Assembly (NCBI GenBank): GCA_963575745.1
Contig: CAUYUJ010000001.1
Coordinates: 2,604,001-2,668,000 of the forward strand
DNA: 64,000 nucleotides
DNA from: Prorocentrum cordatum
Lineage: Eukaryota
Direction: 5' to 3'
Every line of letters starts with the position of its first letter. Position 1 is the first letter of the stretch. The translations under genes and the position numbers were made by a program. Of the stretch, positions 24,346 to 45,700 are shown piece by piece. A model generated the notes under the pieces. It was not told the origin of the DNA, made no database searches, and saw only the letters and a program-made list of their open reading frames with translations.

Positions 24346-25510
24346 ATGGCGAATGGCGTTGCAGGTGGCGCGCGCGGAGCCAGCCAGGGTGGCGACCCCT
24401 GAACGTGTCGTGCGTGCGCTGGTGGCTACAGCAACATGGCCTGGCGCACGGAGCGCAGGCTCTGCAAGGCGGCGCGGCCGCCGCGCGGCGCTGGCACGAT
24501 CGGCGAGGCCATCGACAAGGCCAAGGCGAAGGCCAAGGCCAAGGGGAAGGCGAAGGCCGAGGCGAAGCGCGTGCGCTTTGCCTCGGATGTGCCTGGCCCT
24601 GCCGCCGCCGCGGCCACGCCGGCGCCGTGGGCGCTGGGCGCGGCCAAGCAGGCGGCTGAGGAGCAGCCCAGCGGCAGCGGCGGCAAGGACGAGGAGGTGC
24701 GCCAGGCCCTCCTCCGCCACTTTGGCCCCAGGGGAAGGCTGGTCGGCGGCCCTGGTCCAGGACTTCGGGGCCTTGGTGCCTGTGGTGGACGCGCCGCCGC
24801 CTGCGAAGCCCTTTGCCGAGCTGTCGCTCCAGGCCCTCCTGGCCAGGGAGGCGAAGATCAAGGGCCAGGTCGGGCGCGCGGAGATCGCGCCGGCGGCCGT
24901 CAAGGAGGAGCAGGAGGCCGTCGCGGCCCGCGTGGCGGAGCAGGCTGACGTCCTCCAGAAGCGGCGCGACCAGCTGGAGGAGGTGGCCGAGGCGGTGCGT
25001 GCCAGGAAGCGCGCCGACCTGGCGCAGCACACGGGGCCGTCGCCCATGGAGGAGGGCGAGCCTGAGGAGGCCGAGGGCTGCCTGGGCAAGGCGCTGCTCA
25101 AGGGCCTCGAGGGCCTCGAGGCTGAGCGGGAGCGGGTTCTCTTGCTCGGGGAGGAGGGCGGCGCCCTGCTCGCGATGGCCGCCGAGGCCCGCAGCCTCGC
25201 GGAGAAGCTCGCCGCCGCTGACGCCCGTGCTCGCGAGGCAGCGGCGGCCGAGCGGGCCCGCGCGACTGCAGCCGCAGCTGAGCGGGCCGCCGCGGCGCAG
25301 GAGGCCGCTCCCGAGGCCGATGGCGGTGATGATGGCGCTGCTGGTCCTCCTTGGGACCGCAAGCGCGTCGGCGACCTCGACCTCGGCCCCGAGCTCGTCG
25401 GGCTTGACGCCGTGTTCGGCGAGCTGGGCATGGGGGACGAGCAGCAGCGCGCTGCCTGGCGCGCAGCGCTGGCCAAGCGCCAGCGGGTGGCAGGCCCCGC
25501 CCCAGGGTAG
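24346..25510 (+). pseudogene. LINE-B ORF1 (RanBP2-like zinc finger + coiled coil), disrupted
   Basis: MANG...DP*TCRACAGGYSNMAWRTERRLCK (TGA at 24400 where W is expected), frameshift ~24725, E/A-rich helical region, stop TAG at 25508. Confidence 0.7.
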
Positions 25511-28500
25511 CCGCCCGCAGGCGGCGGACGTGGTGGAGCTGGTGACGGCCAACGCCACCGCGTGGGGCTCGGCGCAGTCGCTGGTCGAGTGGCTGCACGG
25601 TGATCTGCCTCCAGGAGCACCGCCTCAAGGGCAAGCAGGCGGTGGCCCGCGCTGCGGGCTGGATGCAGGCGCGCGGCTTCAGCTGGCACGGCCAGGCGGC
25701 GCTGCCGACGGGCCCAGGGCCGCTGGAGAGCTCGGGAGGAGTGGCAGTGGCCACTCTGCGGCCGTCGGCGGCCGCCGCCGCGCCTGGGCCCCCTGCCCAT
25801 CGGTTCCAGGTGTGCGAGGTGAACCTGGGGTTCAGGGAGCCGTGCCGCGTCATCTCGGCTTACTTCATCACGAAGGTGGGCAGGGCGAAGGAGAACATCG
25901 GGCTCCTGGCGGCGCTGCACGAGTTCGTGGGGCAGCTGGAGTCGCCGTGGATCGTGATGGGTGACTGGAACATGGAGCCCGAGGACGTCCGTGAGTGGGC
26001 GCGCAGCGCTGGCGGTGCGCTCGTCGCCCCAGAGGAGCCGACCTGCGGCTCGAAGGTCTTCGACTTCGCGGTCGCCAGCAAGGTCCTCACGGGCTTTGTG
26101 GATGCGGCTGAGGTGCTGCTGAGGGCGCCGACGAAGGACCACGTGCCGTCCAAGGTGGTGCTGCGCGGCGTGGGGCCAGCGGCGAAGGTGCAGCGGCCGC
26201 TCTTCCCTGCCGCCTTCCCATTGCCGCTGCCGCCGCCAGTGCGGCCAGCGCCGCTCGAGCGTGCCTTCTCGACCTGGAGCCCCGGCGGTGGGCAGTCGCT
26301 CAAGGTGGGCTGCCAGGAGTGGTTCGAGGCGGCGGGGGCCTACCTGATCGACCTCCGCGAGATCGCGCCGCCCAGCCGCTGGAAAGGGCGCGCCGGCGGG
26401 CTGCGAGCGCAGAGGGTCGAGATGGAGGTGGCCTGGCAGCAGGGCCTCAAGAGGAGTGTTGGCGCTGCCTGCAGGCGCTGGATGTCATTCGCGGCGGCAT
26501 GCGCCCGCTGGCGCGCGCTGCAGGAGGCGGCGCCAGGAGGTCGCTGCTGGGCGCCGCTGCGCAAGCAGCGCGAGGTGCTGATGGCGTTCGAGCTCGAGCG
26601 GCCTGAGGAAGGCCCGCTGGCTGGGCTGTCGGTGGCCCGCGTGGTGGGCCTGCTCAGCTCCTCATCGTGCCAGCTGACGGTGCAGTTCGTCCAGGGGGAG
26701 GCGAGGCGGCGCTGGAGGCTGGACAAGCAGCAGAAGGCCGCGGAGTGGCGCACCTGGGCCCAGGCCGCGGCCACCGAGAAGGGCGGCTCGGCGGCCCACC
26801 GCTTCATCAAGCAGGTCGCGGCGGCGCCCGCGGTGGTGCTCGCGGGCGCGGACGGGGGCGACGACCCGCGCATGCCCGTTGCGGGCGAGGCCGCAGTGGC
26901 TGCGCTGCTGGAGGCGCGGCAGCCGCTCTGGATCAAGCCGTCGCGTGCAGGCGAGGCGGCGCCCGAGGACTGGGGCGTCCAGGAGTCGGAGCTGCCGCCG
27001 CTGGAGCTCGAGGACCTCGAGCGGGTCTTGGGCACCTACCGCGAGGGGTGCGGCCTAGGGTGGGATAGGCTCCACCCGAAGCAGCTGCTGCGCCTCCCGC
27101 GGTCCTACAGGCAGCGCTTCCTGGAGCTCCCCATGGCCTGGGGGCGGAAGCCTTCGCGGGAGGCGCTGTGGCAGCTGATCGTGGTGTTCACCCCCAATAC
27201 TACTGGCGGCCAGCGGCCGATCGGCCTCGCGGCCATCTGGCTGAGGGTCTGGAGCAGGTTGCGACAGCCGCTGGTGGCCCGCTGGGAGGTCTCGTTGAAG
27301 AACCCTGCCTTCTGGGGCACGTCGGAGTGCCCGTGCGAGCGCGCGGGGGCGGTGCACAACCTCCTGGCAGCCTTTGCTCGCAGCAGGGGCCTCTCGGCGG
27401 CCACGGGTGTCACCGACCTGGCGCGGTTCTACGAGCACGTCAGCCATGAGGAGCTGCGCGTGCAGGCGGCCGCCGCGGAGTTCCCGCTCGCGCTGCTGCA
27501 GTGCTACTGCGTGTCGTACCGCACGCAGCGCCGCGTTTCCTGGTGTGGCTCGGTCTCCCAGCCGTTCGAAGCGAACGGCGCCATTGTGGCGGGCTGCAGT
27601 GGTGCGGTCGGGCTGGCCAAGCTGCTGGTGCACACCCTCTTCGTGAAGATTGTGCGCACTAACCCTATGGTTCGCCTGCAGAACGTCGTCGACGACGTGC
27701 TGCTGCAGGCTGTCGGCGGCAGGGCTCAGGTGGTGCAGCAGCTCCCCAGGGCCATGGCTGCCCTCGCAGAGGGCCTGGTCGCCAAGGGGCTTGTCATCTC
27801 GGAGGCGAAGCCGGGCTGCCTAGCGAACGGCGAGGACCTCGGCGACGCGCTGGACGGCTGCTGGGCGCACGGGCCGCTGCCCCGCTGGACTGGCGCCCGC
27901 TGCCTTGGCGGCGACGCCGCCGATGGGCGCTGGAGGCGCGCGCGCGAGCAGGGCGCTCGGCTCGGCCGCGCGGTGGCGGTCAGTGCGCGGGCGCGCCTGC
28001 TGCGCAGTGCTGGTGCGCAGGTGGGCCACATCCAGAGAGGCAGCCCCGCGGCCACCGCCGTCTGGGGCTCCGCGGTGACGGGCCTCGCCTGCGGGAAGCT
28101 GCGCGGCCTGCGGGTCGCCGCCATGCGCGCGGAGGGCAGGCTGCCCATGGGCGCCAGCGTCGGCCTGCGGCTGCGGGCGCTGCACGGCGCTGCCTACCGT
28201 GACCCCTTCGCGGTGCACGCGGTGGAGGTGGCGCGCTCCTCGGGCGTGACGCTGGAGACGGGCCTGCCCAGCGCCGCGGTGGTGCAGGAGTGCTGGCTCG
28301 GGGCGCAAGGCTTGCTCGACCTTCGCCGCCCCTGGGGGCAGCGCCGCGACCCTGCGCAGGCTTGTGTGCTGGCGTTACGACGGGTCGGCATCGATATGGT
28401 GGCCTACAATGCCGTCATCGACTGGCAGGCGCGCGTCCTCTCGCTGGAGTTATACTCGCCTGGCATGCTGGTGCAGGTGGTGCGCGAGTCGGCGATGCTG

Positions 28501-30366
28501 GCCTCGGACGTGCTCGCGCTGAAGCGGCTGCGCGGGCCTGGCGCCTGGGCATGGCCTGTGCACTGGAAGGGGCTGGAGCGCCTCCTCCACGCGCGCCGCC
28601 GCCCCGAGGGGCAGGCCGACGCCGAGGCCGCCGATGGCGCTGGCCGCCTGGTGCCCGCGCCGCCGCCGCCGCACTGGCAGGCCCGCCACAGGCGAGCGCT
28701 CGTGGCGGTCCTCGGCGGCTCCCACTGGCCGCAGGAGCGCCTCTGGAAGGAGGGCAAGGCGCGCGACGGCCTCTGCCGCCTCTGCGGTGGCCGAGGCACG
28801 CTGCGGCACAGGGCCTTCGAGTGCGACGCCTGGCTGCCTCTGCGGCGGGACGCGTGCTCGCCTGAGCTGCTGGAGGGGGCGCGGCTGGTGGCGCAGCGCG
28901 GGGACGCCGCGGCGGAGCTCTTCGCGCGTGCGTTGTGCCCCGACCCCGCCCTAGCCTTCCCCGCGGCGGCCGACGCCGCGCTCGCGGCCCCGCGCTGGTT
29001 CGGCGTGCCGCCTGGCTCGAAATTCGCGGGCAGGGTCTTCGTGGACGGCAGCGCCAGGTTTCCTGCGCTGCGCGGGGCCCGCCGCGCAGGCTGGGCGGTG
29101 GTGCAGATCGGCCTCAGCAGGGGGGTCATCGGCGGGATGCACGGCATCGTCCCGCGGGCGTACGGGCCCGAGCAGGAGGCCAGGGACGGCGAGGACTACG
29201 CGTTCCACATGCTGGCCCAGTTCTGGCTGCCGTCGGCCGGCGGCTCGGGCCTTGAGGTCTTCTGCGACTGCGCGGGCGCGGTCGGCTTGGCGCTCTCGCA
29301 AGGCAAGGCCCTCGCGCCGCTGCAGGCGCGCCGCCACCTGTGGCAGGAGTGGTGGGCAGGGCCAGGCCCGTCGGCCACGGTGCGCAAGGTCAAGGCGCAC
29401 ACGGTGCTCGCAGCGGCCTCCTGGGAGGATGAGCTCCTGATCAGGGGCAACAGGGCAGCCGACCTGTGGGCCAAGAGAGGCGCCGCCCTGTGGCCGATCG
29501 ACGAGGAGCGGGTCTGGTTCCTCCAGGCATGCGCCTGGCGCGTGGAGGAGCTCGGGCGCTGGGTCGGCGAGCTGGCCGCCACCATGGTGGACCGCGAGCA
29601 GCTGGACTCGGACGGGGTGGTGGGCACGGCCGACCTCGTCTACGACATCCCGCAGGCGGCGCTGGACGCGGCGGAGCTGGCCGACGCGGAGGTGGCGGCG
29701 CTGGCGCTCGAGGCCGACCTCGAGCTCGGCCAGGCGCCTGGCGCTGCTGCTGGGGCCGCTGCTGGCGTGGAGCTCGGCCAGGCGACCGCTGCTGCCGCTG
29801 GGGCCGCGGCCGACGAGCTTGCGGAGGCAGCTGTGGCCGCTCCCGAGCTGAAGGCTGCGGCAGCTGGAGCTGGAGTGGCGCGGGTGGTGCGCGGGCACTG
29901 CATCGTCGTCTCGCGCCTCGTGAACGGCGACGGGGCCATGGCCTGGTGCCTGAAGTGCGGCTGCCGCTTCTGGAAGCGGTCCCCTCCAGCTGGGACAGGC
30001 CTGCTGGGCAGCTGCAAAGGGCGGCCTGCCCCAGGCGAGAGGGCGGCGGAGGCGCGGCGGCTCTTGATGCGCCTCCAGGAGCCGAAGAGCAGGGCGAGGC
30101 TCTTCGCTCCTCAGCCGCCCACGGAGGAGGAGCAGGCGCGGCTCGCGGCGGTGCTCCACGGCGACGCAGGCGCTGTGGACGGCGCTGGAGCTCCCGCTGG
30201 AGCAGGGCGGTCGCCGCGCTGGGGGCTGCGGCCCGCCACGGCAGACGCCTGGCAGGCGGCCGAGCTCCACGGCTTCGCCTCGCCTGCTGCCGCCGCTCGC
30301 TGGGCGCGGGCGCGCGTGGCGGCGGGCAGGGAGTCGCCCTTCGGCGACGGCGAGGGCGCGGTCTGA
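25506..30366 (+). CDS. LINE-B ORF2 polyprotein: APE endonuclease, reverse transcriptase, CCHC finger, RNase H, C-terminal Cys motif (one frameshift ~25595)
   Basis: VTANATAW, ICLQEH, MGDWN, FDFAV, KDH; RPIGL, DLARFYE, IVAGCS, NVVDD; CRLC..HRAFEC; FVDGS..CDC..KVKAH..GNRAAD. Confidence 0.92.
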
Positions 30367-31547: not shown

Positions 31548-31626
<79 letters not shown>

Positions 31627-31678: not shown

Positions 31679-34600
31679 TGGGGGGGGGGGGGGGGGGGGG
31701 GGGGGTCCAAAGACACTGCCGTCAGGGCCTCCTACTTCTTGCATGCTAACAACAGCCCGACCAGCTCTGGCCGAAAAAGGGTTCCGTTGGTCCAGACCCG
31801 ACCCGTCAATACAAAGCCGAGGGCCAAGGAGGCCCGAGGACGGGCGAAGGTGCCAGAGCCTGGAATCGGCCATAGACAGGGGGGGGCCATTCGGCCCCAG
31901 GGTCGGGTCCAAGGGCCCTAGTGCACAACAAACCCTGCTCGGGTCTACCTACTTCTTCTCGGGCGACTTCGGCCAAATCGAGATCTCGACGGAAGAGGTG
32001 GAAGCCTGGGCGCTCGTAGAGCCTGTGCTTGGGGGTCCCATGGGCCTGGCCACAGCGGAGGCAGTGGGGGTTCAGCACACGGCGGTCAGTGAACAACTGC
32101 AACTGGCACGGGTACCCTCCTGCAACCACTCCGCTCAGGAAGATGGCGGCGTCAACATTATCTTTACTTCGAAAGGCCTGCAGCTCCTCTCGGACCACTG
32201 AGATGAGAGGCGGGCATAACTGGCCAGCCGCGTTCGGGATGGATACATGACGCAGCAACTGGCGGTAGGTGGCCTGCTCGATCAAGGTGGCCACCGTATG
32301 CCTACCAAAGGAACCTAGGTCGATGAAGATCCCGCCCCCGATGTCCCACTTGTCGAACTCCACCCCCGCCCAACAGAGACGCGGGGGAGTGGCCAGCACG
32401 ACGCCCGTTGGGCCGAGGACCTTGGGCCACTTGCCAGCAGAGTTGGAGGACTGGTAACGCTTCCAGCAACTGCTAAGCATGGACCTGGGAAGCCATCGTT
32501 GTTGGATAGCCTGGTGCCACATTCCAAGAGGGAGCAGATTCGCCTGGTAGGTGGGGTCCGACTTGTGGTCCTGGTTGAGAAGGAACTGGATCGTTCTGCT
32601 ACGGCCCCTGGCAGGGCCGAATGCCGCATCTCCGATGATGGCTCTCAAAGAAGCCAGCTGGGTTGGGGCCGCGCCAGTGACCCTGACGCCGTACAGGGCC
32701 GCTGGGGCCCCACCCGTCTCGATGACCCTGTGCGTGCCCGACAAGGTCGACCTGAGACCACGGAACCTCCTGATGCGCAGGAGTAGGGATTGCCAACGTC
32801 GCTGCTGGACCTTGGCAGAGCGCCTGGGAGTCCCTGCGAAGTCCACACCTAGGTTCTTCGTGGCCCCCATGCCCTTGAAATCCCAGAACAAGAGACCCGC
32901 GCGGATAACCTGGGCGATCTGGGCCGGCGAGCCCGTGACGATACCTTTGGTGGGCGAGATGGTGAACCCCAAAGCCTCGAGCTGGACGCAGATGAACTTG
33001 GTGGTTCCCCAAACCATGTGGGTAACATGCTTACGCTTACCCACAGCTCCTATAGTAACGTCATCCACGACATTGTAGACAGATATGCTGGGGTAGAGGC
33101 GGACAGCGTCGTCCCACACGTCGAGCAAAAAACAAAATAAGAGAGTGGTGGCAAACGAACAGCCTGCCAGGACCCCTTGCTCGACATAAATGTCTGCTGC
33201 TACTCGCATGTCAAACTGCAGCGAGCGCTTGCCACGATGCAGCGCAAGCAGGGACCTAAGCCGACGCGCTGGGAAGCCGTGCTTAATCCCCGAGCGCGCG
33301 AGGAGGTAGTGGGGCACCTTTGCGTAGCATTTGGTCATGTCAACCAGGGCGTGCGCAGATTGATGTTTGCATATGTGCGTATGCTCGAGACGAACCGATT
33401 GCTCCCAGCCCTCTCGCACGACTTGCCCATGCTGCCGAACTGATACGCACGAAGATGGGCCTCCTCCCATCTCTTGGCTTCGATCCGAGAAAACCTACCG
33501 ACTATGCGAATGTTTCCTGGTAGAACTCCGATAGGTCGGCGACCCCCGTCGTCACGAGGAATCATTGCGAGCAGGATGTGATGGAGGGGCTCTTGGTTTC
33601 CTGGCCTAGGCGCTCCATGTGAAACCACATGCTCGCCAGGCACTGCAAGCCTGCGTCGGATAACAGCAGACAGTCCCGCGGTCTGGTGCGGTCTGCCCCC
33701 GCGGCCGCGAGCGCCTTGACGGTCTTGGCCACAGCGCGGATGTCCTCAGGAGACGCCTGAGCGAGAGGCTGTTCTCCAGACCGAAAAATAACTTGGCTGA
33801 GGTATTGGATGGGGCCGGGCAAGTTGGCAACGTGAGGGGCAGGGGTCCAGATCTTCTTCCACTCCTCCTCCAGACACCTCATCTGCTCCTCAAGGCTGGG
33901 AGGGGGGCCCCCTTCGGGGTTGTCGGGGATGAACCCACGAGGCTTCTTGGTGAACCGGTGCGCCAGGCCTCCTCCTCCCTCGAGAGATTTAGCAACCCAA
34001 GTCCGCCACTGCTTGGCCCTCTTGGTGCGGAAGCGCCGTTCGAACAGCTCTGCCTGGCGCTTGGACGCAGCGGCAAACTGCAGCAACTGGTTAATCTCGA
34101 TCGAGCCGAGCTGGAAATGCGCGCGCAAGTGCTTCCACTCGGGGTTCTCGAGGAGCTTATTCGGGCCCGAGGCCAACTTGGAGCCCAGCGAGAGGATCTC
34201 TGGATGGTCCCTCGGGTGGTCCTTCCTGAGCAGGCACGCCAACTGCAGAAACCAAGTAGCCACCTTCCTCCAAGCACGGCCTTCAGGACAAGAAACAAGG
34301 TAATCTCCTCCGGAAGTCCGCACAGCTGAAACCCCCTTAAACTTGAGCCCGTTGGCCCTGCCAGAATAGGTACGGTCCAGGGAATCGACGCCGTGGGCAC
34401 TCTTGAGTTCCGCCTCGAAGAGCTTGCAAAACTGAACATAAGCCTGGTCCAGATCGTAAGGGGCCACATTGGGACTGTCGAGGATGTCGCTGCAGGGGGC
34501 CCACGACGGGGGAGTCGGGTAGGGGCCCATGGGGCGCTCCTTCGGGAACGGCTTGGGCCCTTGCAGAACCTTGACCTTGGCCTCCAATGGATTCCCTTCA

Positions 34601-35843
34601 AGCTCCAACGACACCGCGTAATGGGGCGATGTGGTGCTGGCCTCGTTGCGATCAATCTTTCTCCACGCGATGTGGTGCTGGCGTGTGGCGGACTCGAGGC
34701 CCCGCGAGACAACAAAGAAATCGATGGTCCTCCACTGCTTGTCCGACTTGCCGCACGTGGGTCTGCTAGAATGCAAAGTTGTGCCGCCTTGTCAGCCCAC
34801 CCAGTGTTGAGCAGCTGTGATGGGTGAGTGTTCCAATCCCCTCCAATGATGAACGGAATCTGCAGCTGGTGGATCTCTTCGCCTATGCGATTCAAAGTCC
34901 TGATCGAGTCGAGGCCTAGCGGGCCGTTGCAATCTAAATAAAGCGAGAAGACCGCCAGGCCTCCAGGGGCGAACGTGTTGACCCACGCGGAGCATGCCCT
35001 CTCAGGCTGAGGAAGGGGGCGAGCGAGTGGCAAAGCTCCAATGGGGATGTGCGGACGAACCGCAATTCCTGTACCGCTGCTGAGTCCCCCTCCCAGGGTG
35101 GGGATACTGGGATTGACGATCGATTTCCACCCTATGCTCTTCAGCTGGTTGACCCCCTCGTACGGCGGCTCCCCGAAGCTGAAGTCCTGGAGGAAAACGA
35201 TGGTCCCCTGGGCCTCGTCCTGCAAATATGTTTTGAGAGATCCCCAGGACGTAGTATTGGCCGTGTCGAACACCACGCGCTTCAACTCTGACGAGGAAGG
35301 AAGAGTGGGTTTGGCGCGCGCGCCAGGCGTGCTGGCATCCTGCTCGCTCGCGCCTCCAGACTCACAGGAAGGTCGGGGGCATGTGCAAGCGGGAGTTCGC
35401 AGCGCCGAAGCTGAAACAGATCTCGTAGTAGATGATGGCTGCACCGCCCCTGCCGACGGCGACTGGACAGGACGACAGGGCAGCTGAGCAGGAAGGCGAA
35501 ACTGAAACCATGATGGTGCTGGTGTCATGCGTGCGCAGCTTGAGAATCTCGGGGCAATTTCGGGCTGCCCCCAACCCAGTGAGGTAGTGCCCGTGGAGGA
35601 GGTATCGCGAGGCAAGCCGTGCCGCGAACATGTGGCGCCCTCTGCCTGCCATGCTCGCGCCGATTCCCTGCCCCAGGGTCCCTCTAGGCGGTCCCAGCGC
35701 CTCGGGGGCGCTGGCCTACCGAGGGTTTCGTCTGGGGGGGGGGGGGGTCTCAGCGGTCTCATGGCAGGTGAGTGTGGCGACCATGTCGGAGACGTCGAAA
35801 TCGAAGTCCCGAGCGTAGTTGCCCACTGCCATGATAGGCTAAA
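30668..35843 (-). pseudogene. LINE-C ORF2 (APE-RT-ZnF-RNase H), several frameshifts
   Basis: DTANTTSW, IGGDWN, TIDFFV; RPIGVL, DMTKCY, QGVLAGCS, NVVDD; CLRCG..HRLYE; CIDGS..YSDY..KVKAH..LADMLA; WCSMC. Confidence 0.9.
31505..31705. repeat. (TG)n plus poly-G/poly-C tract inside the LINE-C RNase H domain
   Basis: Lies between the DGS and SD motif segments. Confidence 0.9.
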
Positions 35844-37248
35844 GTCCTGGCTGCGAATGACCTGGTTCGACTGAATTTCTTGAAAGTGCAAGGGCCATGT
35901 CGAGCCGCAACCTGTGCTCAGCAGAGTCCGACGCATCGACAGGGCGCTTCTCAGCGGTAGAACCCTGGTTGATGTCGCAGGCCTGGGCCACTGCGGCAGC
36001 CGATGGGGCCGAGGGGGCCCTCGGGCCTGGGGCAGTGGCAAGAGTGGCCGCGAGGGCCTCGGCTGCTGCGGGGGTAGCAGCCGCGGCCGAGCCAGGGGTG
36101 GCTGGCGCGCCACCTCTAGCAGCGTCGCAGTCGCCCTCGTCGTCGATGCCGAACTTGCGGCGCTTGAGCTGCATGCGGGCACGGAAGGCGCGCTGCTCGT
36201 CGACCAGCTCCTTGGCCCTCTGCTTGACCTGGCCAAAGGACTCCGCCACTGCCCTCTTGATGGTGTATTCGGCCTCCGCCTTGCGCCGAGCCACCTCTTC
36301 GCGCTCGTGTTCAGAGGGCTCGACGCCCTCGGCCTCCAAACCGAACAGGCCGTCGTCGGCGAAGATCTCAACAGAAGCGTGCTCGTCCAGCAGGCGTTCC
36401 AGGCTGAGGCCGCGGGTGCGGGGCGCGGCTGCGGGGGCCGCTGTCGCGCCCGCACCCTCGGGATGCACATGCTCGGCCAGGATGCGCACTGCCCTGTGGC
36501 AGTTAGCTTGGCACTCCTCGAAATCGGAGAGGGCGCTGATGGCGGCCTGCTCTGCGTCGTGGAGCTGTTGCTTGGGAGACCCAGCAGCGCGCACTTTTTT
36601 GTCCAGGAACGTATTCGCCTCACGCATGGCGTGCTGAGCAGCCCCCACCGTCTGGGGCTTGGGCACCGCGGCCATCTGCAGCTGGCTGGCACAACGGTTG
36701 TACAAGTCGGCACTGTGCGTGTCGCCAGTGCGCTGGAAATTCGCGGCCAAACTGAGCAGCACTGACACGTCCTCCTTGGAATAGCTGGTCCAAGAGTGAT
36801 GACCTGCCGAGCGTAGCCATCCAGATTCACCCAGCTGAAGTCCAGGCATTCTGGGCTCACTCGCTGGCTTGCCTGGGCCAGGTGGCTGCGGAGCTGAGGA
36901 CAGGGCATCGGTTTGACCCTTGCCTTTGCCCTTGTCGGAGTTGCCTCCCTTGCCGCCCTTGGTGAACTGGGATGCGCCTGTGCCCGCATCGCCCCCGTCG
37001 CACAGGGAGCGGTGGGAGCCCGCGGGGGGCCTGCTGGCCCAGGCGCCCGAGGCCTCGGGCGGAGCGGACGGGGCCACGAAGGACAATGGCTGCAGGCAGT
37101 GCTTGCAGAACCAGTAGTGTTTCTTGTTGTTCTTGCAACCGCAGTGGGGGCAGGGCGCTTTGCTGAGCGCTTCGCCGTCGCCGTACCATTGCTGAGGCTC
37201 ACCTGTTGGCTTGCGCACCCAAGGATCACGAAAGAACAGAGGAGCCAT
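35839..37248 (-). CDS. LINE-C ORF1 (C4 zinc finger, coiled coil)
   Basis: MAPLFF...CPHCGCKNNKKHYWFCKHC; open to TAG at 35839; start chosen as the ATG before the finger. Confidence 0.8.
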   Translation of the reverse strand: MAPLFFRDPWVRKPTGEPQQWYGDGEALSKAPCPHCGCKNNKKHYWFCKHCLQPLSFVAPSAPPEASGAWASRPPAGSHRSLCDGGDAGTGASQFTKGGKGGNSDKGKGKGQTDALSSAPQPPGPGKPASEPRMPGLQLGESGWLRSAGHHSWTSYSKEDVSVLLSLAANFQRTGDTHSADLYNRCASQLQMAAVPKPQTVGAAQHAMREANTFLDKKVRAAGSPKQQLHDAEQAAISALSDFEECQANCHRAVRILAEHVHPEGAGATAAPAAAPRTRGLSLERLLDEHASVEIFADDGLFGLEAEGVEPSEHEREEVARRKAEAEYTIKRAVAESFGQVKQRAKELVDEQRAFRARMQLKRRKFGIDDEGDCDAARGGAPATPGSAAAATPAAAEALAATLATAPGPRAPSAPSAAAVAQACDINQGSTAEKRPVDASDSAEHRLRLDMALALSRNSVEPGHSQPGL

Positions 37249-37395
37249 CGGCGAGCCGTAGCCAGGGGCTGACCTGACTGGGACGTCGTTGCTCCAGCAG
37301 GAGATCACAAAGAAAATGAAGGGAACCAACCTCGTCTGGCAGGCAACGAGGAGAAACTGTGGGGGCCGTCCTTCCCCCTTGCCAAACAGCCAGGT

Positions 37396-37438
37396 CCTGT
37401 GCCGAAACACTACGGACTTGAGCCTAAATGGCTACGGA
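37396..37438 (-). other. DinoSL (21/22) followed by an older degenerate SL
   Basis: TCCGTAGCCATTTAGGCTCAAG (37438-37417) + TCCGTAGTGTTTCGGCACAGG (37416-37396). Confidence 0.9.
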
Positions 37439-39920: not shown

Positions 39921-40391
39921 ATGGCGAAAGGGGGGGGAATAGCAAAGGGGGCGTTTGAGAATCAGCTCACGTAGTTGATTTTCCCGGCGCCTCCCGGCGC
40001 CGGAGGCGGCTATGTATCGAGGAATGGTCCCAGCGGCGGGGCCGAAACCAGCTGCATGCCGCAGATTTCGTACCCCCGCCTTTCCCAATACCACCCTTTC
40101 GTCTGCCCCGAAACCCATGGGCCGCGCAATCCATGGATGGAACGATGGAGCTTATCGCAATCCATGGACGGCACCGCAACCGATGGCGCAGCCCAGGGAC
40201 CGCGCAACCCATGGCGCGCAGCATGGGAGGCACCTTCTCGATCTTCCGCCGATGAGGAGGAGGTGGAGGAGGGGGAGGGGGAGGAGGAGGAGGAGGAGGA
40301 GGAGGAGGAGGAGGAGGAGGAGGAGCGAACGTAACCTTGAAGGAAGGTTCGTCCGCGCTTAGCCGAGCGCGCGGCGCGCCCGCGCCTCCAC

Positions 40392-43300
40392 TCAGGTCAG
40401 AGGAAGCTGGAGGGCGCGGCGGGCGGCGGCGAAGGCGGTGTACTGGTCGTGGTAGGAGATCGGGAGGGGGTGGTCCTTGGTGAGGTGGTATGCCCGCGTC
40501 GCGACGGCGAGGCGCGTGGCGGAGTTCGGGATGCCGTTCTCGCCGTCGAACGGGTGCGACAGCTCGGGGAGCGCCATGCGCGTGAGGAGGTCGGCGCTCA
40601 GCTGGCCGCGGGCAGGCTCAGCTGGTGCCACATGCGCTCGCACGTCATGTAGTGCTGAATGTTGTCCTTGGCGAGCGGGTGCGTGCACCCGAAGTGGCAA
40701 GGGCGCTTGTCCTGGATGACATGCATGCGGTAGCTGGTGGCCCATGCGCCCACGAGGGCCTTCACTGTGGCCCACATCCGTGCGGGCGGTTGCGTGGCCA
40801 GGTAGGTGCGCAGGCGTTTCCATCGAGCTGGAAGATCGGCAGGAACCCGTTGGAGACGTAGAAGATCAGGCGGCTCGTCTTCATCATCGGGAGGGTCTTC
40901 GTCGCCGTCGGGGAAGTCGGCGTCACTGATGTCGGTGTCGGGCAGCTGGTACGGGGGAAAGTTGGTGACCCAGCGGCGGCGAGCACGATGTTGGGCAGCC
41001 TCATGTTGAAGTAGCGAAATCTGGCTGCTCGGTTCATCTGAGCGGGTCCGAGCTCTTGAGAGGCGATGTTCGAGGAGGATTCTGCCAGTACCGCTGTTGT
41101 CCCATGCCTGCTGACACATATCGGCGGCGATCTGTCGACGGCGAGTGGAGGTGGCATAAAGCGGGCGAGAGGTCTCGGATCCGAGAAGCTCGCACAGGTA
41201 CTCTGTGCACCACTGCATCCAGTCTGAGCGGTTGTCGATCGTGTTGTCGTTGAGCAGGATGTCGGGGATCCAGTGGGCGGCCCACGCACGAGCTCGGTCA
41301 GCCAGGCGTTCTTGCACGATTTCGGCTTTTCGGCGAGGCCCGCTGATCGGTTCCCTGGTTAGCGACTTCGCAGGGTCAAGAGACGGGAACCAGGACATGA
41401 GCCGCCGCTTGATGGTGTCTGCCATCGTGTCGGTGTAGAGCTGCTCGTTGAGGGACATCATGTAGGCCTTCTGCGGCGTGATCTGTGCGGCTCGGCGGCG
41501 GTGCGATTCTTGTTGCTGCTGTAGGAGGGCCTGCATTCCAGCACGGGCGGCTCGCTTGTGGATGCCAATCATAGCGGCTCGGGCGCGGGGAAGGGGGCCC
41601 GCTGTGCGGGTCAACCTCTTTAAGTGGGAACCCTTGCCGTCGGGGAAGAAAGTAGAGTTGGTGATGTGCTCGAAACGTTGGACAATGGAAGTCTTGATGG
41701 ACCAGCACTCGCTGCACCAGCGGCCGCGCTGCACTGTGACAATGGGGAGCTGCTCGTACGCGGTGTCGCAGAGCGCGTTGAATGCATCGCGCCACTCTGC
41801 CACCGCGTTGGTGGCTGTGCGCCACATAGTGGCTGCCAGGTAGTTCTCGATGCCAGTGGGAACCTCAGCCTTGGTCCAGAGGGACATCGCGAGGATGTCG
41901 GACTTCGCGAAGCTGGACGGGGCGACGCGCAGCAACTTGTGGATGGCCTTCAGCTCCTTCTGGAGGATGCCCTCCGAGGGTTCGAATAGCTGGCCAACGT
42001 AACCGAGGACCGTGACGGCAGCGACGTTGCACAGTTTGATGCTTTGCTGGATAGGGGCGTGGGACGCAGCAAGCTTCTCGATGCGGTCCCACCACTTGAC
42101 CGCGGGGCCGCGCCATTGGTCGTCAAGTGTGGCGCCAGGGCCGATGATGAAGCCGAGGTATCTGGCGCTGGACTCAACTTTGAAGGCGGCCCGGGGAGCG
42201 TGGGCGGTCGCAAGTACTTGACGTATCTCTGCAATGATGTCCTGAGTGGGCAACGTCCAGGTCGGGACCACGATGCATTCCTTGGCCTGGAGGCACAGCC
42301 CCGCGAGAGTCTCCACCGCGATGATGTGCGGCGCGAGCTTGCTGATGTCCGCGAGCCTCGCGAGGATAATGCCGAGGTCGTCAGCACATGCGCTAACCAG
42401 ACCGCGCTCGATGGCTGAGAGCTCTCTGGTGAGGGCTCTGATGACGGGGTCGAAGACGAGGGCCCATATCGTTCCGCTTAACGGGCAACCCTGGGCGACT
42501 CCTGGGGCTGCGATCAGGAGGGGGTGGCGTGCACCTGCCAGGTCCAGGTAGGAGACAGGCCAATGGTAGCAGGCTTGAAGCAGGTGAAGCATGTGTCCGT
42601 GGATGCCCCACCGCTGGAGAACGCTCCACATCCAGCGGTGGCCGAGGCTGGGGAAAGCGGCCGCGATGTCCATGCTGACAAAGACGGGCTTGTCAGTAGC
42701 TGCATTAGGTGAAAGACTGTGACGTCGAGCGGCGGCGTCCACCACGACGACGTTGCGCAAAAACTGGCGGCCATTGACGAATCCCTGCTGCTCGGGGGAC
42801 GTCTCGGCTGCGAGGGCGTGAAGCTGCTTCACGTCCGAGTTCTCCATTGAGAGCGGACGTAGGCACTCCGCAGGGCTCGTCGCCCTTCGGTAGCGTGGCC
42901 ATGAGGGAGTAGTTGAGGTCGTGAGGCGGTGCGCGTCGGGTAGCGATGCCCCTGCAGAAGTCGGCGAGGATGTCGAAGCTGTCGGGAGTACGCAGCCATG
43001 CTTTGTAAGGAAGTGTGTCAGGACCTGGTGCTGAATCGCCAGCCAGGCGAGCGGCCTTCTCGAGAGCTTGGGCGTCAGGAAGGTCGAGGTGAGTGAGTGC
43101 GCGTCTGGGAAAGATCGAGTCGAGGTAGTTGGAGAGGGCGTCGTCGGGAACATGATTTGCGGAGAAGACAGGGGCCCAGTGGCGCATGATGGCCTGATGC
43201 ATCGTCGCGGGGTCGGTGACGATGTTGGTGACGCCGCCCGCGATGATCTTGAGGCCCGTCAAGACGAGCCGCTTGGAGAAGGGCTTCCAGAGCTCGCCGT

Positions 43301-44694
43301 GGAGGCCTTCACGTTTGGCGCGCTGGCGCCACTTCTGACCGAGCTGGACATTGTTGGCGGCGAAAGCGGCTCGCGAGCGTGCCGCAGAGAGGGCCTTGCG
43401 CTCATCACTAAGGCTCGCGTGCGTGGCGTCGGTGGTCGAGGTGAAGTCATGCATGTCGTTGATGCTGACGGTGCGACCGTCAATCTTCAGGTGCAGTTTG
43501 CCGATGTCAGTGTTGTCGATCAGCGTCTGGGCAAGGGGGATGTTCTGGTACCATGCGGCCCTGGCGATGCTGCGTAGTGTCGTGGCCCTGGTCTCCTTTC
43601 TGACAGTACCACTTTGTGATGATAGTTCGGCGGCTGGGATCTTGAGAAGCGTGTCGCGGGCTCTGGCAGCAGCAACTCTCATGGCTGCCTTCAAGGCCCT
43701 CCAGCGCGCCGTGGGAGTGAGGGAAGACATGTCGACCGCGGCGAGCACTCTTGTGATGTGGTGCTTGTAGTGGTCGGTGTCGAAGATGTACGCGGGGATG
43801 CCGCGCTCGGTGACCTTCTTGGGCTTGCGAAGACGGATGCGCAGGTGCATGATCTTGTGGTCGCTGACGGGGCCCTTGGGGTTCTCGAGGGGAGCGTCGT
43901 CGGCGATGTAGACAGTTTCCATGAAGGGCATGAGGTGGCTGGGTAGGTTGATGAAGCAGCGGTCAATCGTCGATTCATTCTTGTTAGCCTCCGACCTGTG
44001 TGTCGTCGAGGGAGTCACTATCTCGATGACGTCGCGGAACAGGTTGCGCCAGAAGACAGGTTGGTACTGGTACCGCTGTGAAGCTGTGGTGTCTGAGTCG
44101 ACAGGCGTGTTGATCGAGCGTGGTGGGAACTCGGAGACGTTGAAGTCGCCGACGATGACTAGAAGCCGATGCTGAGGGGCTTCGTCAGCATGATGGCGGA
44201 GAGCGTGCCATTGGTCACGAAGGAGAAACCGATCTGCTGGAGTCAAGCCGAAGTTGTGAATGTTGAGGACGGTGACTTCGTGCTGGAGGTTGGCATCCGT
44301 GGTCCGGAGCCGCGCGGCTCGGCCAGGGATGACGACCTCGAACCTGAGTTGAGGCCGTTCGTCAGGGGGAAGTTGAAGCTCTGCTTTGTCGTAAGGGGAC
44401 GAGGAAGCCGATGCCACCAGCGTTCGTTACGGGCACGCCGTTGACCTTCACAGGCGAGTGGAAAGCTTTGTACCGATGTTGAGTAGAGTTCGCCAGCAGC
44501 TTGAGGTCGTCCAGTGTCCCATGAGTCTCTTGAACTGCAATGAGAGCTCGTTGGCGAAAATATGGTAGGAGTTGCTGGCGTTTGTCCGCGCGACGTAGTG
44601 CGGACTGTCCGAGAAGCGCTTGCGAGTTCCAGAATGCGATGTCCAGGCCCTCCTGCGAGGGCTTCAGGAGCCAGGGGCTCCAGCGAAGGCTAAA
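40392..44694 (-). pseudogene. LINE-D ORF2 (APE-RT-CCHC), several frameshifts
   Basis: AFWNSQAL, AVQETH, VGDFN, TIDRCF, SDH; SAPGPD, RPLSM, QQGF, DIAAAF, GVAQGCPLS, ACADD; CHFGC..HYMTC. Confidence 0.9.
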
Positions 44695-45700
44695 GCCACT
44701 GTGCGGCGGCGAGGGGGTCTGCGAAGTTGCTGATGAACTCGGCTGCAATCTGCTTCTGGTCATCTTCAGAGATTCCGAGTCTGATGGCGGCTTGTGACCA
44801 CTGGAGCTTAGTAGGAGCATCAGCATTGCTGCCAACAATAAGCCGAACCAAGGCTTCGCCACGGCACGAAATGTATCCCAGGGTTCTGTGTGAGCGAGCG
44901 TCGAGGTCGGGCTTGAAGTTCTGCATGATCTTGGCGAGGCGCTTGATCTGGACCTCCGTGCGGACGGCCTTCGGGCTTTTGTCGGCAGATACGTATAAAG
45001 GAACGAGTTTGTCATTACCACAATCGAGAGTAAATGTGCGCCAATCCTTTCCATTGCGCAAAGTATTATGAAGCCGTTGCGCCCGAGGTTCCGCAACCAC
45101 TGTGCCTCCACTGACTTGAAACGAATGGCGCTTGGAGGGGCCAACTGTGTTGAAGATGACCATATCCTTCTTGATGTTGGCGGCCTGGAACCATGGGATA
45201 AGCGCTTTTTCCAGGTGCTGCTGACTGAACTCCTGCGGGCTGCTGCACCAGAAGGTCGTGATGTCGGGGTCGCGGTCCCAGCTGCCCAGGCCGTCCAGGT
45301 TGAGGGCGGGAGCGCGTGCTTCAGCTGCTGTGACAATGGACTCGAGCTTGGCGACGGCGGCTTTGAGTTCGGAGTTCTGTTTTTCCAGGGCATTGGTGCG
45401 GAGCTTGACTGCGGTGATGTCTCGTTCTGTGGCTTCGTGCCGTCTGCTGAGGTCGGACGTGATCTGCGTGAGGGAGGCGAGAAACTCTGAGCTGGCCTTT
45501 GCTGTGACTGCCTTGGCTGTGGCTTCGAACTTTTCGGTGGCGTCTTTGATCTGGGCAGCCATGGTCTCCTCGAGTTGCTTACGAACATGTGCTGGGAGGT
45601 CGTGGACTGCGAGTTTGGAAGCACTGTCATGCCATGGATCTTGTTGTCGCTTGACAGGGTCGGTGGCTCCGTCTCGAGGGGTTGATGCAGCGCTGGCCAT
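44690..45700 (-). CDS. LINE-D ORF1 (coiled coil followed by an alpha/beta region)
   Basis: Open frame MASAAS...QWL*; heptads ITAVKLRTNALEKQNSELKAAVAKLE; position between SL and APE. Confidence 0.8.
   Translation of the reverse strand: MASAASTPRDGATDPVKRQQDPWHDSASKLAVHDLPAHVRKQLEETMAAQIKDATEKFEATAKAVTAKASSEFLASLTQITSDLSRRHEATERDITAVKLRTNALEKQNSELKAAVAKLESIVTAAEARAPALNLDGLGSWDRDPDITTFWCSSPQEFSQQHLEKALIPWFQAANIKKDMVIFNTVGPSKRHSFQVSGGTVVAEPRAQRLHNTLRNGKDWRTFTLDCGNDKLVPLYVSADKSPKAVRTEVQIKRLAKIMQNFKPDLDARSHRTLGYISCRGEALVRLIVGSNADAPTKLQWSQAAIRLGISEDDQKQIAAEFISNFADPLAAAQWL

What the first reader, a model, noticed from the sequence alone, without database searches (positions are those of the whole stretch)
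25505..44695. Conserved +1 'shifty-stop' ORF1/ORF2 junction in three different LINEs
Seen: LINE-C ORF1 ends CTT-TAG-CCT (35844-35836) and LINE-D ORF1 ends with the identical CTT-TAG-CCT (44695-44687), although the two differ in RT motif and domain content. LINE-B ends GGG-TAG-CCG (25505-25513). In all three the APE-coding frame is +1 (TTT-AGC or GGT-AGC). In B and D there is no ATG between the stop and APE motif I. Established: CUU next to a stop or slow codon drives +1 frameshifting (prfB CUU-UGA-C, Ty1 CUU-AGG-C), and CUU>UUU or GGG>GGU permit P-site re-pairing; L1 ORF2 is normally made by reinitiation. Inference: programmed +1 frameshifting yields an ORF1-ORF2 fusion. Alternative: TAG|CC is a trans-splice acceptor (it matches TAG|CC inside the SL) producing a monocistronic ORF2 mRNA.
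Basis: partly seen in the sequence, partly recalled or inferred. Interest (0 to 1): 0.88.

Follow-up and report, generated by a model that had tools for sequence, protein, structure and literature searches.

The report
LINE ORF2 frame overlapping all of ORF1
Three decayed dinoflagellate LINE retrotransposons have their endonuclease/reverse-transcriptase gene one base out of frame with ORF1, and that frame is kept open through the whole of ORF1, so a frameshift at the ORF1 stop codon is possible but probably not the main way ORF2 is reached.

Summary
The quoted sequences are at the stated coordinates. All three elements are APE+RT LINEs of a dinoflagellate, and each starts with a spliced-leader (SL) relic.

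- **LINE-D:** the junction is real and conserved. The window copy and its 5 ORF1 homologues (45-66% identity) all end QWL*. Four of 9 ORF2-frame sequences read SGFS there, which fits TGG-CTT-TAG-Y.
- **LINE-B:** the +1 arrangement holds once a copy-specific 23-nt deletion is allowed for. Whether GGG-TAG-C is conserved could not be tested.
- **LINE-C:** this junction fails. Codon bias stays in frame 0 for about 155 codons after its TAG.

A new result argues against a stop-only frameshift. The ORF2 frame is kept free of stops across ORF1. NTG codons are followed by an A-starting codon in 1 of 99 cases in ORF1s, against 53 of 349 for other G-ending codons and 48 of 346 in ORF2s. In D, the first AUG after the SL lies in the ORF2 frame.

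My reading, with rough confidence:
- ORF2 is entered upstream as a long overlapping ORF: about 0.4.
- +1 slip at CUU-UAG-C: about 0.25.
- Reinitiation, trans-splicing at TAG|CC, or chance: the remainder.

No DNA or RNA of relatives could be obtained, so the mechanism stays open.

The parts
24270..24287 (+). LINE-B 5' end: a degenerate SL relic (TCCTAGCCGTTTCGGGGC). It is preceded by a (TCC)n run and by the same 14-mer that ends LINE-B (24259 and 30433).
24353..25510 (+). LINE-B ORF1, an Ala/Glu-rich coiled-coil-like protein whose start is uncertain. It ends GGG-TAG (stop at 25508-25510).
25505..25513 (+). LINE-B junction GGG-TAG-CCG. The +1 frame reads GGT-AGC (G-S), and the APE starts about 10 codons later (VVELVTANATAWGS).
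25597..25598 (+). Site of a copy-specific 23-nt deletion in the window's LINE-B. Other copies carry 23 extra bases here, which makes the APE continuous in the +1 frame.
   Evidence: table 4; reading
25546..30366 (+). LINE-B ORF2 as it stands in this copy: rest of the APE, RT, a zinc knuckle and an RNase H-like part. Stop is TGA.
37417..37437 (-). dinoSL (1 mismatch) at the 5' end of LINE-C.
35839..37248 (-). LINE-C ORF1 (zinc-finger-like CxxC...CxxC plus a helical region). It ends CTT-TAG (stop at 35841-35839). The +1 frame has 0 stops.
35364..35832 (-). LINE-C frame-0 continuation after the TAG. ATG at 35832, in-frame TAG at 35718, TGA at 35364, and a 14-C tract at 35747-35734. Codon bias says frame 0 is the coding frame here.
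33879..37304 (-). LINE-C APE frame (+1 relative to ORF1), open for 1141 codons across ORF1 and the linker. The APE motif starts near 35230.
31806..33494 (-). LINE-C RT, in yet another frame because this copy is decayed. Stop is TGA. The 3' tail is poly-C plus (CA)n from about 31705.
45931..45951 (-). dinoSL (exact match) at the 5' end of LINE-D, preceded by (TCC)n.
45928..45930 (-). First AUG of the LINE-D RNA. It directly abuts the SL and lies in the ORF2 (+1) frame. That frame is open from here to the APE.
44690..45700 (-). LINE-D ORF1, an L1-ORF1p-like protein (coiled coil plus RRM-like plus C-terminal domain). It ends ...AAQWL-TAG. The +1 frame has 0 stops.
44687..44695 (-). LINE-D junction CTT-TAG-CCT. 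The +1 frame reads GGC-TTT-AGC-CTT-CGC-TGG (GFSLRW). It lies in the 5' arm of a predicted 9-bp hairpin.
44362..44689 (-). LINE-D ORF2 start in the +1 frame. It holds the conserved RW[ST]PW motif and APE motif I (LDIAFWNSQALLG...IAVQETHG). A copy-specific extra base lies near 44393-44395.
40598..44426 (-). Rest of LINE-D ORF2: APE in frame 44426-42705, RT in frame 43258-40598. Stop is TGA. The 3' (TCC)n tail is at 40324-40280.

Best explanation
These are SL-capped APE-type LINEs of a dinoflagellate.

**Shown.**
- In B and D the endonuclease/RT ORF sits in the +1 frame.
- Its conserved protein sequence begins within 2-14 codons after the ORF1 stop (TAG), with no AUG in between.
- The ORF2 frame is not only open at the junction. 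Synonymous codon choice and residue order keep it free of stops through the whole of ORF1.

**Inferred.** Ribosomes already read the ORF2 frame inside the ORF1 region. ORF2 would then be the 3' part of a long ORF that overlaps ORF1 and is entered upstream.
- In D, entry would be at the first AUG of the mRNA, which abuts the 22-nt SL. ORF1 would be read from the next AUG by leaky scanning.
- In C and B the entry point is not identified.
- ORF2p would carry a basic Ser/Pro/Arg-rich N-terminal extension.

Under this reading, the invariant TGG-CTT-TAG-Y of the D family is a doubly coding stretch: QWL-stop in ORF1 and SGFS in ORF2. A +1 slip on CUU-UAG-C may still act as a second route into ORF2.
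For: **Stop avoidance in the ORF2 frame.**
- NTG codons followed by an A-starting codon would create TGA in the +1 frame. Counts: D ORF1 0/12, C ORF1 0/37, C frame-0 linker 0/13, B ORF1 1/37, so 1/99 in all.
- Controls: other G-ending codons in the same ORF1s 53/349 (Fisher 1.5e-5); NTG codons in five ORF2 segments 48/346 (Fisher 7e-5); a host-like ORF 13/65.
- NTN codons before an A-starting codon end only in C or T: D has 23 C and 3 T, C has 16 C. Before other codons G is common.
- Synonymous-codon shuffles: +1 stops are 0 against 4.0 expected in C (P=0.005), 0 against 3.1 in D (P=0.012), and 1 against 2.0 in B (not significant). ORF2 segments and the host-like ORF were at most mildly below expectation for +1 stops (P 0.06-0.9).

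**Entry point in D.**
- The first AUG (45930) abuts the SL, is in the ORF2 frame, and opens 522 codons to a copy-specific break.
- There is no other AUG before the ORF1 AUG.
- A 46%-identical relative (P0013) reads ...VAILAQDV..., which also places ATG right after the SL in the +1 frame (inferred from the protein).

**Other support.**
- 0 of 30 Met residues in the six D-family ORF1 proteins are followed by I, M, T, N or K, which would force a +1 TGA. These positions are not independent.
- LINE-A shows the same kind of avoidance for a -1-frame overlap: 2 stops against 8.9 expected, P=0.001. NNT before AA/AG/GA is 2/42 against 77/317.
- There is no ATG between the stop and the APE in B and D.
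Against: - Nothing in this model explains why the last sense codon is the classic shifty CUU. It also does not explain why all four ORF1 stops are TAG while three ORF2-type stops are TGA, or why the unrelated C and D share CTT-TAG-CCT.
- Only D has a suitably placed first AUG. In C the first +1 AUG is the third AUG of the RNA. In B the only +1 AUGs lie 59-63 codons before the junction, behind six other AUGs, and the +1 frame has one stop at 24657.
- If D's first AUG were used efficiently, ORF2 fusion protein would outnumber ORF1p. That is the opposite of what LINEs are thought to need (PMC3894237, passages read).
- Codon bias gives no coding signal for the +1 frame inside ORF1 or in the 5' UTR. 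This is expected for an overprinted frame, but it is not positive evidence.
- All window copies are decayed, and the stop-avoidance test was devised after I had seen the open frames.
- No DNA of relatives, RNA or protein data could be examined.
Confidence: 0.4

Rival explanations
1. Programmed +1 ribosomal frameshift at the ORF1 stop. With CUU (B: GGG) in the P site and the poorly terminating UAG-C in the A site, peptidyl-tRNA re-pairs on UUU (B: GGU). Decoding continues with AGC, giving a low-yield ORF1-ORF2 fusion analogous to Gag-Pol.
For: - D family: 6 of 6 ORF1 proteins end QWL*, although the C-terminal 8 residues are modelled with pLDDT below 50.
- Of the 9 ORF2-frame sequences spanning the site, 4 read SGFS and a fifth reads LFS. 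With WL* this requires [C]TT-TAG-Y, yet CTT is only 19% of D's Leu codons.
- Met positions in the +1 frame upstream of the junction are not conserved.
- The conserved ORF2 motif RW[ST]PW starts 2 codons after the site.
- There is no ATG between the stop and the APE in B and D.
- All four ORF1 stops are TAG, and three are followed by C.
- CUU-UAG-C resembles prfB CUU-UGA-C and Ty1 CUU-AGG-C (recalled, not from a call).
Against: - It does not predict the stop-free +1 frame throughout ORF1 (1/99 against about 15%).
- It does not predict the -1-frame equivalent in LINE-A.
- C's coding signal stays in frame 0 after its CTT-TAG, so the apparent third case is not one.
- GGG to GGU re-pairing in B is weaker, and its conservation is untested.
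- The only predicted structure at the D site contains the shift site itself in its 5' arm, so no downstream stimulator is evident. Downstream folding is unremarkable: z = -1.7 for D and -0.7 for B.
- CTT-T is not clearly avoided inside ORF2 (4/47 against 15% expected).
- The SGFS conservation could equally reflect dual coding.
Confidence: 0.25
2. Termination-reinitiation without a fixed AUG, as described for human L1 ORF2, or SART1-type coupling. Ribosomes finish ORF1 at UAG and a fraction restart nearby in the ORF2 frame.
For: - The ORF2 conserved sequence starts right at the stop and no AUG follows in B and D.
- In C an ATG lies 6 nt after the stop, within a strongly predicted hairpin (z = -3.6; 0 of 200 shuffles fold as well).
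- Reviews describe SART1 UAAUG coupling with a downstream structure, and an AUG-independent, unknown initiation for L1 ORF2 (PMC3894237 and PMC5009743, passages read).
Against: - It gives no reason for conserving CTT and TAG at nucleotide level in the D family.
- It gives no reason for the open +1 frame across ORF1.
- Long upstream ORFs disfavour reinitiation (PMC3894237, passage read).
Confidence: 0.1
3. The ORF1 stop doubles as an SL trans-splice acceptor (YAG|CC, as inside the SL itself), producing a monocistronic SL-capped ORF2 mRNA.
For: - All four ORF1 stops are TAG, which supplies an AG, while three ORF2-type stops are TGA.
- TAG|CC matches the GTAG|CC acceptor used inside relic SLs; a tandem relic at 16151-16186 shows that use.
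- These LINE RNAs are demonstrably SL-trans-spliced at their 5' ends.
- In C the spliced product would carry an AUG 6 nt after the SL.
Against: - In B and D the product would have no AUG before the catalytic part of the APE. The SL contributes none in that frame (and my own reading of the SL sequence).
- C's nearby AUG is in frame 0, not the APE frame.
- Transcriptome-derived peptides of relatives run 27-97 codons upstream through the junction, so unspliced RNA exists.
- It does not explain the open +1 frame.
Confidence: 0.08
4. No special mechanism at the junction. The shared 9-mer, the TAG stops and the +1 offsets would be coincidences among decayed copies, picked out post hoc.
For: - All three copies carry ORF2 frameshifts.
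- CTTTAGCC occurs at the chance rate in the window, 2 against 1.44 expected.
- C's TAG may be a nonsense mutation in a longer frame-0 ORF.
- C and D are otherwise unrelated.
Against: - D's stop position and codons are conserved in relatives down to 45% identity.
- Other copies keep the +1 relation in B and D.
- The stop avoidance in the ORF2 frame is far beyond chance.
Confidence: 0.07

Closest known systems
+1 programmed frameshift sites at or next to a slow codon: E. coli prfB CUU-UGA-C, yeast Ty1 CUU-AGG-C, antizyme UCC-UGA-U (recalled; antizyme and the importance of C after the stop also from passages of PMC5009743)
   Same: A CUU codon directly before a stop followed by C. The downstream ORF is in the +1 frame and has no start codon of its own. 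In Ty1 the product is a Gag-Pol-like fusion of a retroelement.
   Different: The stop here is UAG. No stimulatory element was found. The +1 frame is kept open far upstream, which these sites do not require. One of the three cases (C) fails the coding-frame test. Nothing has been shown at the protein level.
Overlapping (overprinted) genes of RNA viruses read by leaky scanning
   Same: There is a long alternative frame with significantly too few stops, maintained by synonymous choice in the other gene. In D, two successive AUGs in different frames have no AUG between them. The overprinted product is basic and of low complexity.
   Different: The overlap covers an entire LINE ORF1 and runs straight into ORF2. 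I found no report of this for a LINE in searches. The entry codon is identified only for D, and only by inference.
Human L1 ORF2 (AUG-independent, unconventional initiation) and Bombyx SART1 (UAAUG coupling with a downstream structure)
   Same: A bicistronic LINE RNA with an L1-type ORF1p (D's model matches the human L1 ORF1p trimer, Foldseek E = 8e-5). ORF2 has no obligatory AUG. In C, the stop is followed closely by an AUG and a hairpin.
   Different: L1's ORFs are in frame and separated by a spacer (recalled). SART1 has an overlapping stop-start. Here the ORFs are offset by +1, the stop context is conserved at nucleotide level, and the ORF2 frame is open across ORF1.
Euplotes 'shifty stops' (+1 at AAA-UAA/UAG; recalled, with a brief mention in passages of PMC5009743)
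   Same: An internal stop codon far from the 3' end would serve as a +1 shift site.
   Different: In Euplotes this is a genome-wide property. Nothing here shows that dinoflagellate host genes do it.

Membership tests
APE-type LINE (non-LTR retrotransposon) | Reverse transcriptase domain | tested here: met
   RVT_1 scores: D 52 bits (cut-off 29.6); C 23.6 and B 16.5 bits, both below cut-off. D's RT matches R2 and L1 ORF2p chains at E = 3e-10 to 1e-8. B's RT is 25-30% identical to C's.
APE-type LINE (non-LTR retrotransposon) | N-terminal apurinic-type endonuclease | tested here: met
   Exo_endo_phos hits in B, C and D fall below Pfam's cut-off at 16-20 bits. D-type relatives P0031 and P0032 pass it at 26.8 and 25.8 bits. 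Motif I and the LQE(T/H) motif are visible.
APE-type LINE (non-LTR retrotransposon) | Upstream ORF1 encoding an RNA-binding or chaperone-type protein | tested here: met
   D: the AlphaFold2 model (pLDDT 73.6) has a long helix plus alpha/beta domains, and its best PDB matches are human L1 ORF1p trimers (E = 8e-5, probability 1.0). ORF1 of B and C was not classified: Pfam found nothing and C has no homologues.
Programmed +1 ribosomal frameshift site (prfB/Ty1/antizyme type) | P-site codon that can re-pair in the +1 frame, next to a stop or slow codon | tested here: met
   CUU-UAG-C in C and D, with UUU in the +1 frame; GGG-UAG-C in B, with GGU in the +1 frame. That these codons are shifty is recalled knowledge.
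Programmed +1 ribosomal frameshift site (prfB/Ty1/antizyme type) | Downstream ORF in the +1 frame, coding from the site on, with no start codon of its own | tested here: inconclusive
   Met for B and D. Not met for C, where frame 0 stays coding after the TAG and an ATG follows.
Programmed +1 ribosomal frameshift site (prfB/Ty1/antizyme type) | Shift site conserved at nucleotide level among relatives | tested here: inconclusive
   D family: 6/6 ORF1 proteins end QWL*, and 4/9 ORF2-frame sequences read SGFS with one more reading LFS. This fits TGG-CTT-TAG-Y, but the two frames come from different records and no DNA was available. B and C were not testable.
Programmed +1 ribosomal frameshift site (prfB/Ty1/antizyme type) | Trans-frame protein product or measured shift efficiency | not testable with these tools
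   No RNA holder was listed, and there are no proteomic data.
Overlapping gene (overprinting) read from an upstream start | Alternative frame open far beyond chance, enforced by synonymous choice in the known gene | tested here: met
   1/99 against 53/349 and 48/346. Shuffle P = 0.005 for C and 0.012 for D; B is not significant.
Overlapping gene (overprinting) read from an upstream start | Accessible start codon in the overlapping frame, conserved in relatives | tested here: inconclusive
   D: the first AUG of the RNA is in the ORF2 frame, and this is also inferred for P0013. C: it is the third AUG. B: it lies only 59-63 codons before the junction.
SL trans-splice acceptor | SL-joined transcripts, or SL-headed genomic copies, starting at the site | not testable with these tools
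   No RNA run was available. The loose-end table shows only 24 of 1255 rows, none at the junctions. That is no evidence either way.

The most novel reading that the evidence does not exclude
Dinoflagellate LINEs of several unrelated families would encode ORF1 entirely inside the 5' part of the ORF2 reading frame, a whole-gene overlap maintained by codon choice. They would reach ORF2 by recoding or alternative initiation on an SL-capped RNA. The routes would be a cap-proximal AUG abutting the SL, a Ty1/prfB-like +1 slip at CUU-UAG-C at the ORF1 stop, or both. This would be the first LINE expression strategy built on full ORF1/ORF2 dual coding, with or without a Gag-Pol-style frameshift.
Probability: 0.45. 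Interest if true: 0.8.

Novelty: new variant of a known kind. Interest (0 to 1): 0.62.

Why it matters
How LINEs make a little ORF2p from a bicistronic RNA is an old, unsettled question. A 2013 review of non-LTR protein biogenesis does not use the word frameshift at all (PMC3894237; term search). The 2016 recoding review lists only HeT-A gag among non-LTR elements and calls L1 ORF2 initiation unknown (PMC5009743, passages read).

Here two concrete signatures sit in one system: a nucleotide-conserved CUU-UAG-Y junction, and an ORF2 frame kept open through all of ORF1. Each makes a sharp prediction that ribosome profiling, mass spectrometry or reporter assays could test.

The work also shows that these LINEs ride the dinoflagellate spliced-leader system. 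Full-length copies begin with the SL. That bears on how retroposition shaped these very large genomes.

Tried and rejected
**Whole genome and earlier notes.** No whole genome is held for this window. Earlier notes of this scan returned nothing in three look-ups.

**DNA of relatives could not be obtained.**
- Viral contigs, two scans: nothing.
- Metagenome contigs, two scans: nothing, then one spurious bacterial contig, L001.
- Genome contigs, two scans: nothing, then two spurious bacterial MAG hits, L002 and L003.
- As a result, codons at relatives' junctions are inferred from proteins only.

**Sequencing runs.** No RNA holder was listed. Only small-share DNA contig runs were available. Laying four of them gave family-level indels, but its truncated tables had no rows at the junctions. 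A single-contig joint from 25507 to 40879 (shorter side 20 letters) was treated as chance.

**Homologue searches.**
- C ORF1 has no homologues at E <= 1e-5.
- The window holds no second copy of any of the three families.
- C and D show no similarity in ORF1, in ORF2 N-termini or around the junction. The shared 9-mer is therefore not residual homology of the flanks.
- B ORF2 has no PDB sequence match.
- P0030, a 1859-aa hit, is a host-gene/LINE chimera rather than an ORF1-ORF2 fusion.

**Ideas tested and dropped.**
- A homopolymer (14 C) indel as C's frame switch: rejected, because frame 0 stays the best-scoring frame well past the tract.
- Distributed +1 shift sites inside ORF1: CTT, GGG and CCC followed by T show no enrichment in ORF1 and no clear avoidance in ORF2.
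- Coding signal in the 5' UTRs of C and D: none in any frame.
- A downstream stimulatory structure: D z = -1.7 and B z = -0.7, both unremarkable.

**Literature.** Four searches found no report of frameshifting or whole-ORF1 overlap in dinoflagellate LINEs. Subscription-only papers are not covered.

Full report
**What is there.**

The window is 62% G+C and has one 100-N gap at 30459-30558. The dinoflagellate spliced leader (SL) occurs four times, against 0.01 expected. The sites are 16166-16186 with a tandem relic beside it, 37417-37437 and 45931-45951, all on the minus strand.

Pfam finds an endonuclease and a reverse transcriptase in each of B, C and D. Only D's RT clears the curated cut-off. 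D's RT matches R2 and L1 ORF2p chains.

D's ORF1 has five homologues. Its model has a long coiled coil plus alpha/beta domains, and it hits the human L1 ORF1p trimer (Foldseek E = 8e-5). These are therefore genuine two-ORF, APE-type LINEs whose RNAs were SL-trans-spliced before they were copied into the genome.

**The observation.**

The three junction sequences are exactly as described, and the APE frame is +1 relative to ORF1 in each copy. All three copies are decayed, with further frame breaks inside ORF2.

Contigs of four public runs were laid at 80% likeness or better. Other family members carry 23 extra bases behind 25597/25598, and they lack one base at 44393/44395. With these differences, the APE of B (...VEWLH + 23 nt + ICLQEHRL) and of D becomes continuous in the frame that is +1 to ORF1. 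The +1 relation in B and D is therefore a family property and not an artefact of decay.

B and D have no in-frame ATG between the stop and APE motif I.

**LINE-D is conserved.**

The window's D ORF1 and its five homologues (45-66% identity) all end ...QWL-stop. Q, W and L are invariant columns, although the last eight residues are modelled with pLDDT below 50.

A search with the ORF2-frame translation across the junction gave 18 representatives, and a profile search added P0033. Nine sequences span the site, counting the window:
- four read SGFS two codons before a conserved RW[ST]PW motif (window, P0015, P0025, P0033);
- a fifth, P0017, reads LFS at the same spacing;
- four more distant ones (P0022, P0027, P0031, P0032) cannot be read.

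W-L-stop in one frame and G-F-S in the next can only be TGG-CTT-TAG-Y. CTT is 19% of D's Leu codons.

Two caveats apply. The two frames come from different records. And all the named ORF2-frame peptides come from one transcriptome set.

Met positions upstream in the ORF2 frame are not conserved.

**LINE-C does not fit.**

C and D share the 9-mer but nothing else. I scored the three frames with a codon-usage log-likelihood trained on the LINE ORFs, leaving out the C linker.
- After C's TAG, frame 0 stays the best-scoring frame at +0.44 and +0.34 bits per codon, and again at +0.08 to +0.23 over codons 60-140.
- Over the same stretch the +1 frame scores like a non-coding phase, at -0.1 to -0.37.
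- The +1 frame wins only from about codon 160.

In frame 0 an ATG lies two codons after the stop, followed by an in-frame TAG at 35718 and a TGA at 35364. So C's CTT-TAG is either a true stop followed by an in-frame restart, or a nonsense change inside a longer frame-0 ORF. Either way it is not where coding moves to +1. C ORF1 has no homologues with which to settle this.

**The unexpected result.**

The ORF2 frame is open not only at the junction but across the whole of ORF1: from 45945 in D, from 37304 in C and from 24660 in B.

*Synonymous-codon shuffles.*

| Region | +1 stops seen | Expected | P |
|---|---|---|---|
| C ORF1 | 0 | 4.0 | 0.005 |
| D ORF1 | 0 | 3.1 | 0.012 |
| B ORF1 | 1 | 2.0 | not significant |

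Five ORF2 segments and a host-like ORF were at most mildly below expectation for +1 stops (P 0.06-0.9).

*The cause shows at codon level.* A codon NTG followed by an A-starting codon makes TGA in the +1 frame.

| Codon class and region | Followed by an A-starting codon |
|---|---|
| NTG, D ORF1 | 0/12 |
| NTG, C ORF1 | 0/37 |
| NTG, C frame-0 linker | 0/13 |
| NTG, B ORF1 | 1/37 |
| NTG, all ORF1 regions | 1/99 |
| Other G-ending codons, same regions | 53/349 (Fisher 1.5e-5) |
| NTG, five ORF2 segments | 48/346 (Fisher 7e-5) |
| NTG, host-like ORF | 13/65 |

Hydrophobic NTN codons before an A-starting codon end only in C or T. D has 23 C and 3 T, and C has 16 C.

In the six D-family ORF1 proteins, 0 of 30 Mets precede I, M, T, N or K. 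These positions are not independent.

A fourth element, LINE-A, has its ORF1 at 15972-14893 and ends TGC-TAG-G. It shows the same kind of depletion for a long overlapping -1 frame: 2 stops against 8.9 expected, P = 0.001.

I devised these tests after seeing the open frames. The effect is nevertheless large, repeated across elements, and absent from the internal controls.

**What it means.**

Phase-specific avoidance of stops implies that ribosomes read that phase. A slip at the ORF1 stop does not need an open +1 frame upstream, whereas entry upstream does.

In D the first AUG of the RNA abuts the SL and lies in the ORF2 frame. No other AUG precedes the ORF1 AUG, and the frame runs open into the APE. 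The P0013 relative reads ...VAILAQDV..., which puts ATG at the same place and phase.

The encoded extension is Ser/Pro/Arg-rich, with net charge +39 in D, +74 in C and +66 in B.

This is my best reading, at about 0.4 confidence. It leaves several things unexplained:
- the CUU codon;
- the four TAG ORF1 stops against three TGA ORF2-type stops;
- the 9-mer shared by C and D;
- the lack of an obvious entry codon in C and B.

**Rivals.**

- **+1 frameshift at CUU-UAG-C (about 0.25).** It accounts for the nucleotide conservation and for the resemblance to prfB and Ty1 (recalled). It does not account for the open frame, for C's coding phase or for LINE-A. No downstream stimulator stands out, and CTT-T is not clearly avoided in ORF2.
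- **AUG-independent reinitiation (about 0.1).** It has precedent in L1 and SART1 (PMC5009743 and PMC3894237, passages read). It suits C, where the stop is followed after 6 nt by an ATG within a hairpin (z = -3.6).
- **Trans-splicing at TAG|CC (about 0.08).** It fits the TAG stops and the SL biology, but it leaves B and D without a start codon.
- **Pure coincidence (about 0.07).** The D-family conservation and the stop avoidance argue against it.

**Limits.**

No genome was held, no RNA run was listed, and no DNA of relatives could be retrieved. Junction codons in relatives are inferred from proteins. B's and C's families are untested. No translation product has been observed. Four literature searches found no prior description; subscription journals are not covered.

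**Verdict.**

C is a look-alike. The frameshift reading is plausible but not the best-supported. The more striking fact is the stop-free ORF2 frame across ORF1. I rate this a new variant of a known kind, with interest 0.62.

Noticed in passing
window 45931-45951(-), 37417-37437(-), 16151-16186(-), 24270-24287(+): Full-length LINE copies begin with a complete dinoSL (D, C, A) or a degenerate relic of it (B). LINE-A has the SL plus a truncated second relic. The LINE RNAs were therefore SL-trans-spliced before retrotransposition, and the relic SL could let read-through transcripts regenerate a capped element RNA. A 46%-identical relative (P0013) also reads through (TCC)n plus SL.
   Followed up: partly
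window 40324-40280(-), 30433-30600(+), 24150-24272(+), 45952-46100(-), 37438-37480(-): B and D end in (TCC)n tails rather than poly-A. Every element's 5' end abuts a (TCC)n or (GAG)n run. The 14-mer CCTCGTACTCTTCC occurs only at B's 3' end (30433) and directly before B's 5' SL relic (24259). This suggests insertion into the microsatellite tail of a like element, that is, microsatellite-targeted or head-to-tail insertion. C instead ends in poly-C plus (CA)n at about 31705-31500.
   Followed up: partly
window 15972-14890(-) and 15793-14267(-): LINE-A has a coiled-coil ORF1 ending TGC-TAG-G. A 508-codon open frame in the -1 (+2) phase overlaps its last ~300 codons and runs 208 codons beyond the stop. 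That phase has 2 stops against 8.9 expected (P=0.001). The downstream ORF has no Pfam match. An RNase H-like ORF (13984-13208) and an APE-like ORF (13207-12224) follow in other frames.
   Followed up: partly
window 14890, 25508, 35839, 44690 versus 30364, 31806, 40598: All four ORF1 stops are TAG (three followed by CC, one by GG). The three ORF2-type ORFs end in TGA. The DUF6492-like host ORF ends in TAG.
   Followed up: partly
window 44697-44676(-) and 35843-35750(-): The D junction sits in the 5' arm of a predicted 9-bp hairpin (GGCUUUAGC/GCUGGAGCC, loop CUUC). After C's TAG there is a long hairpin that sequesters the ATG (z = -3.6; 0 of 200 shuffles fold as well), closed by UUUAGC/GCUGAG pairing. 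Conservation could not be tested.
   Followed up: partly
window 30436-31102 and 39774-40440: Contig depth is extremely high in all four laid runs, up to about 172,000 and about 19,800 summed word depth in X5. These bins cover the (TCC)n tract and a short repeated unit downstream of LINE-D (...CCATGGGTTGCGC/CCATAGGTTGCGC...). It is probably a very abundant satellite.
   Followed up: no
proteins P0015, P0017, P0022, P0025, P0027, P0033: All named ORF2-frame relatives of this dinoflagellate LINE come from one transcriptome-derived protein set that its source labels as a green alga (Pyramimonas sp.). Either that alga has D-like LINEs, or the set contains dinoflagellate sequence. In either case the relatives are transcribed.
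   Followed up: no
window 60416-62368(-): A 650-codon open frame has a DUF6492 domain (E = 2e-21). It is probably a host gene and was used only as a codon-pair control.
   Followed up: no
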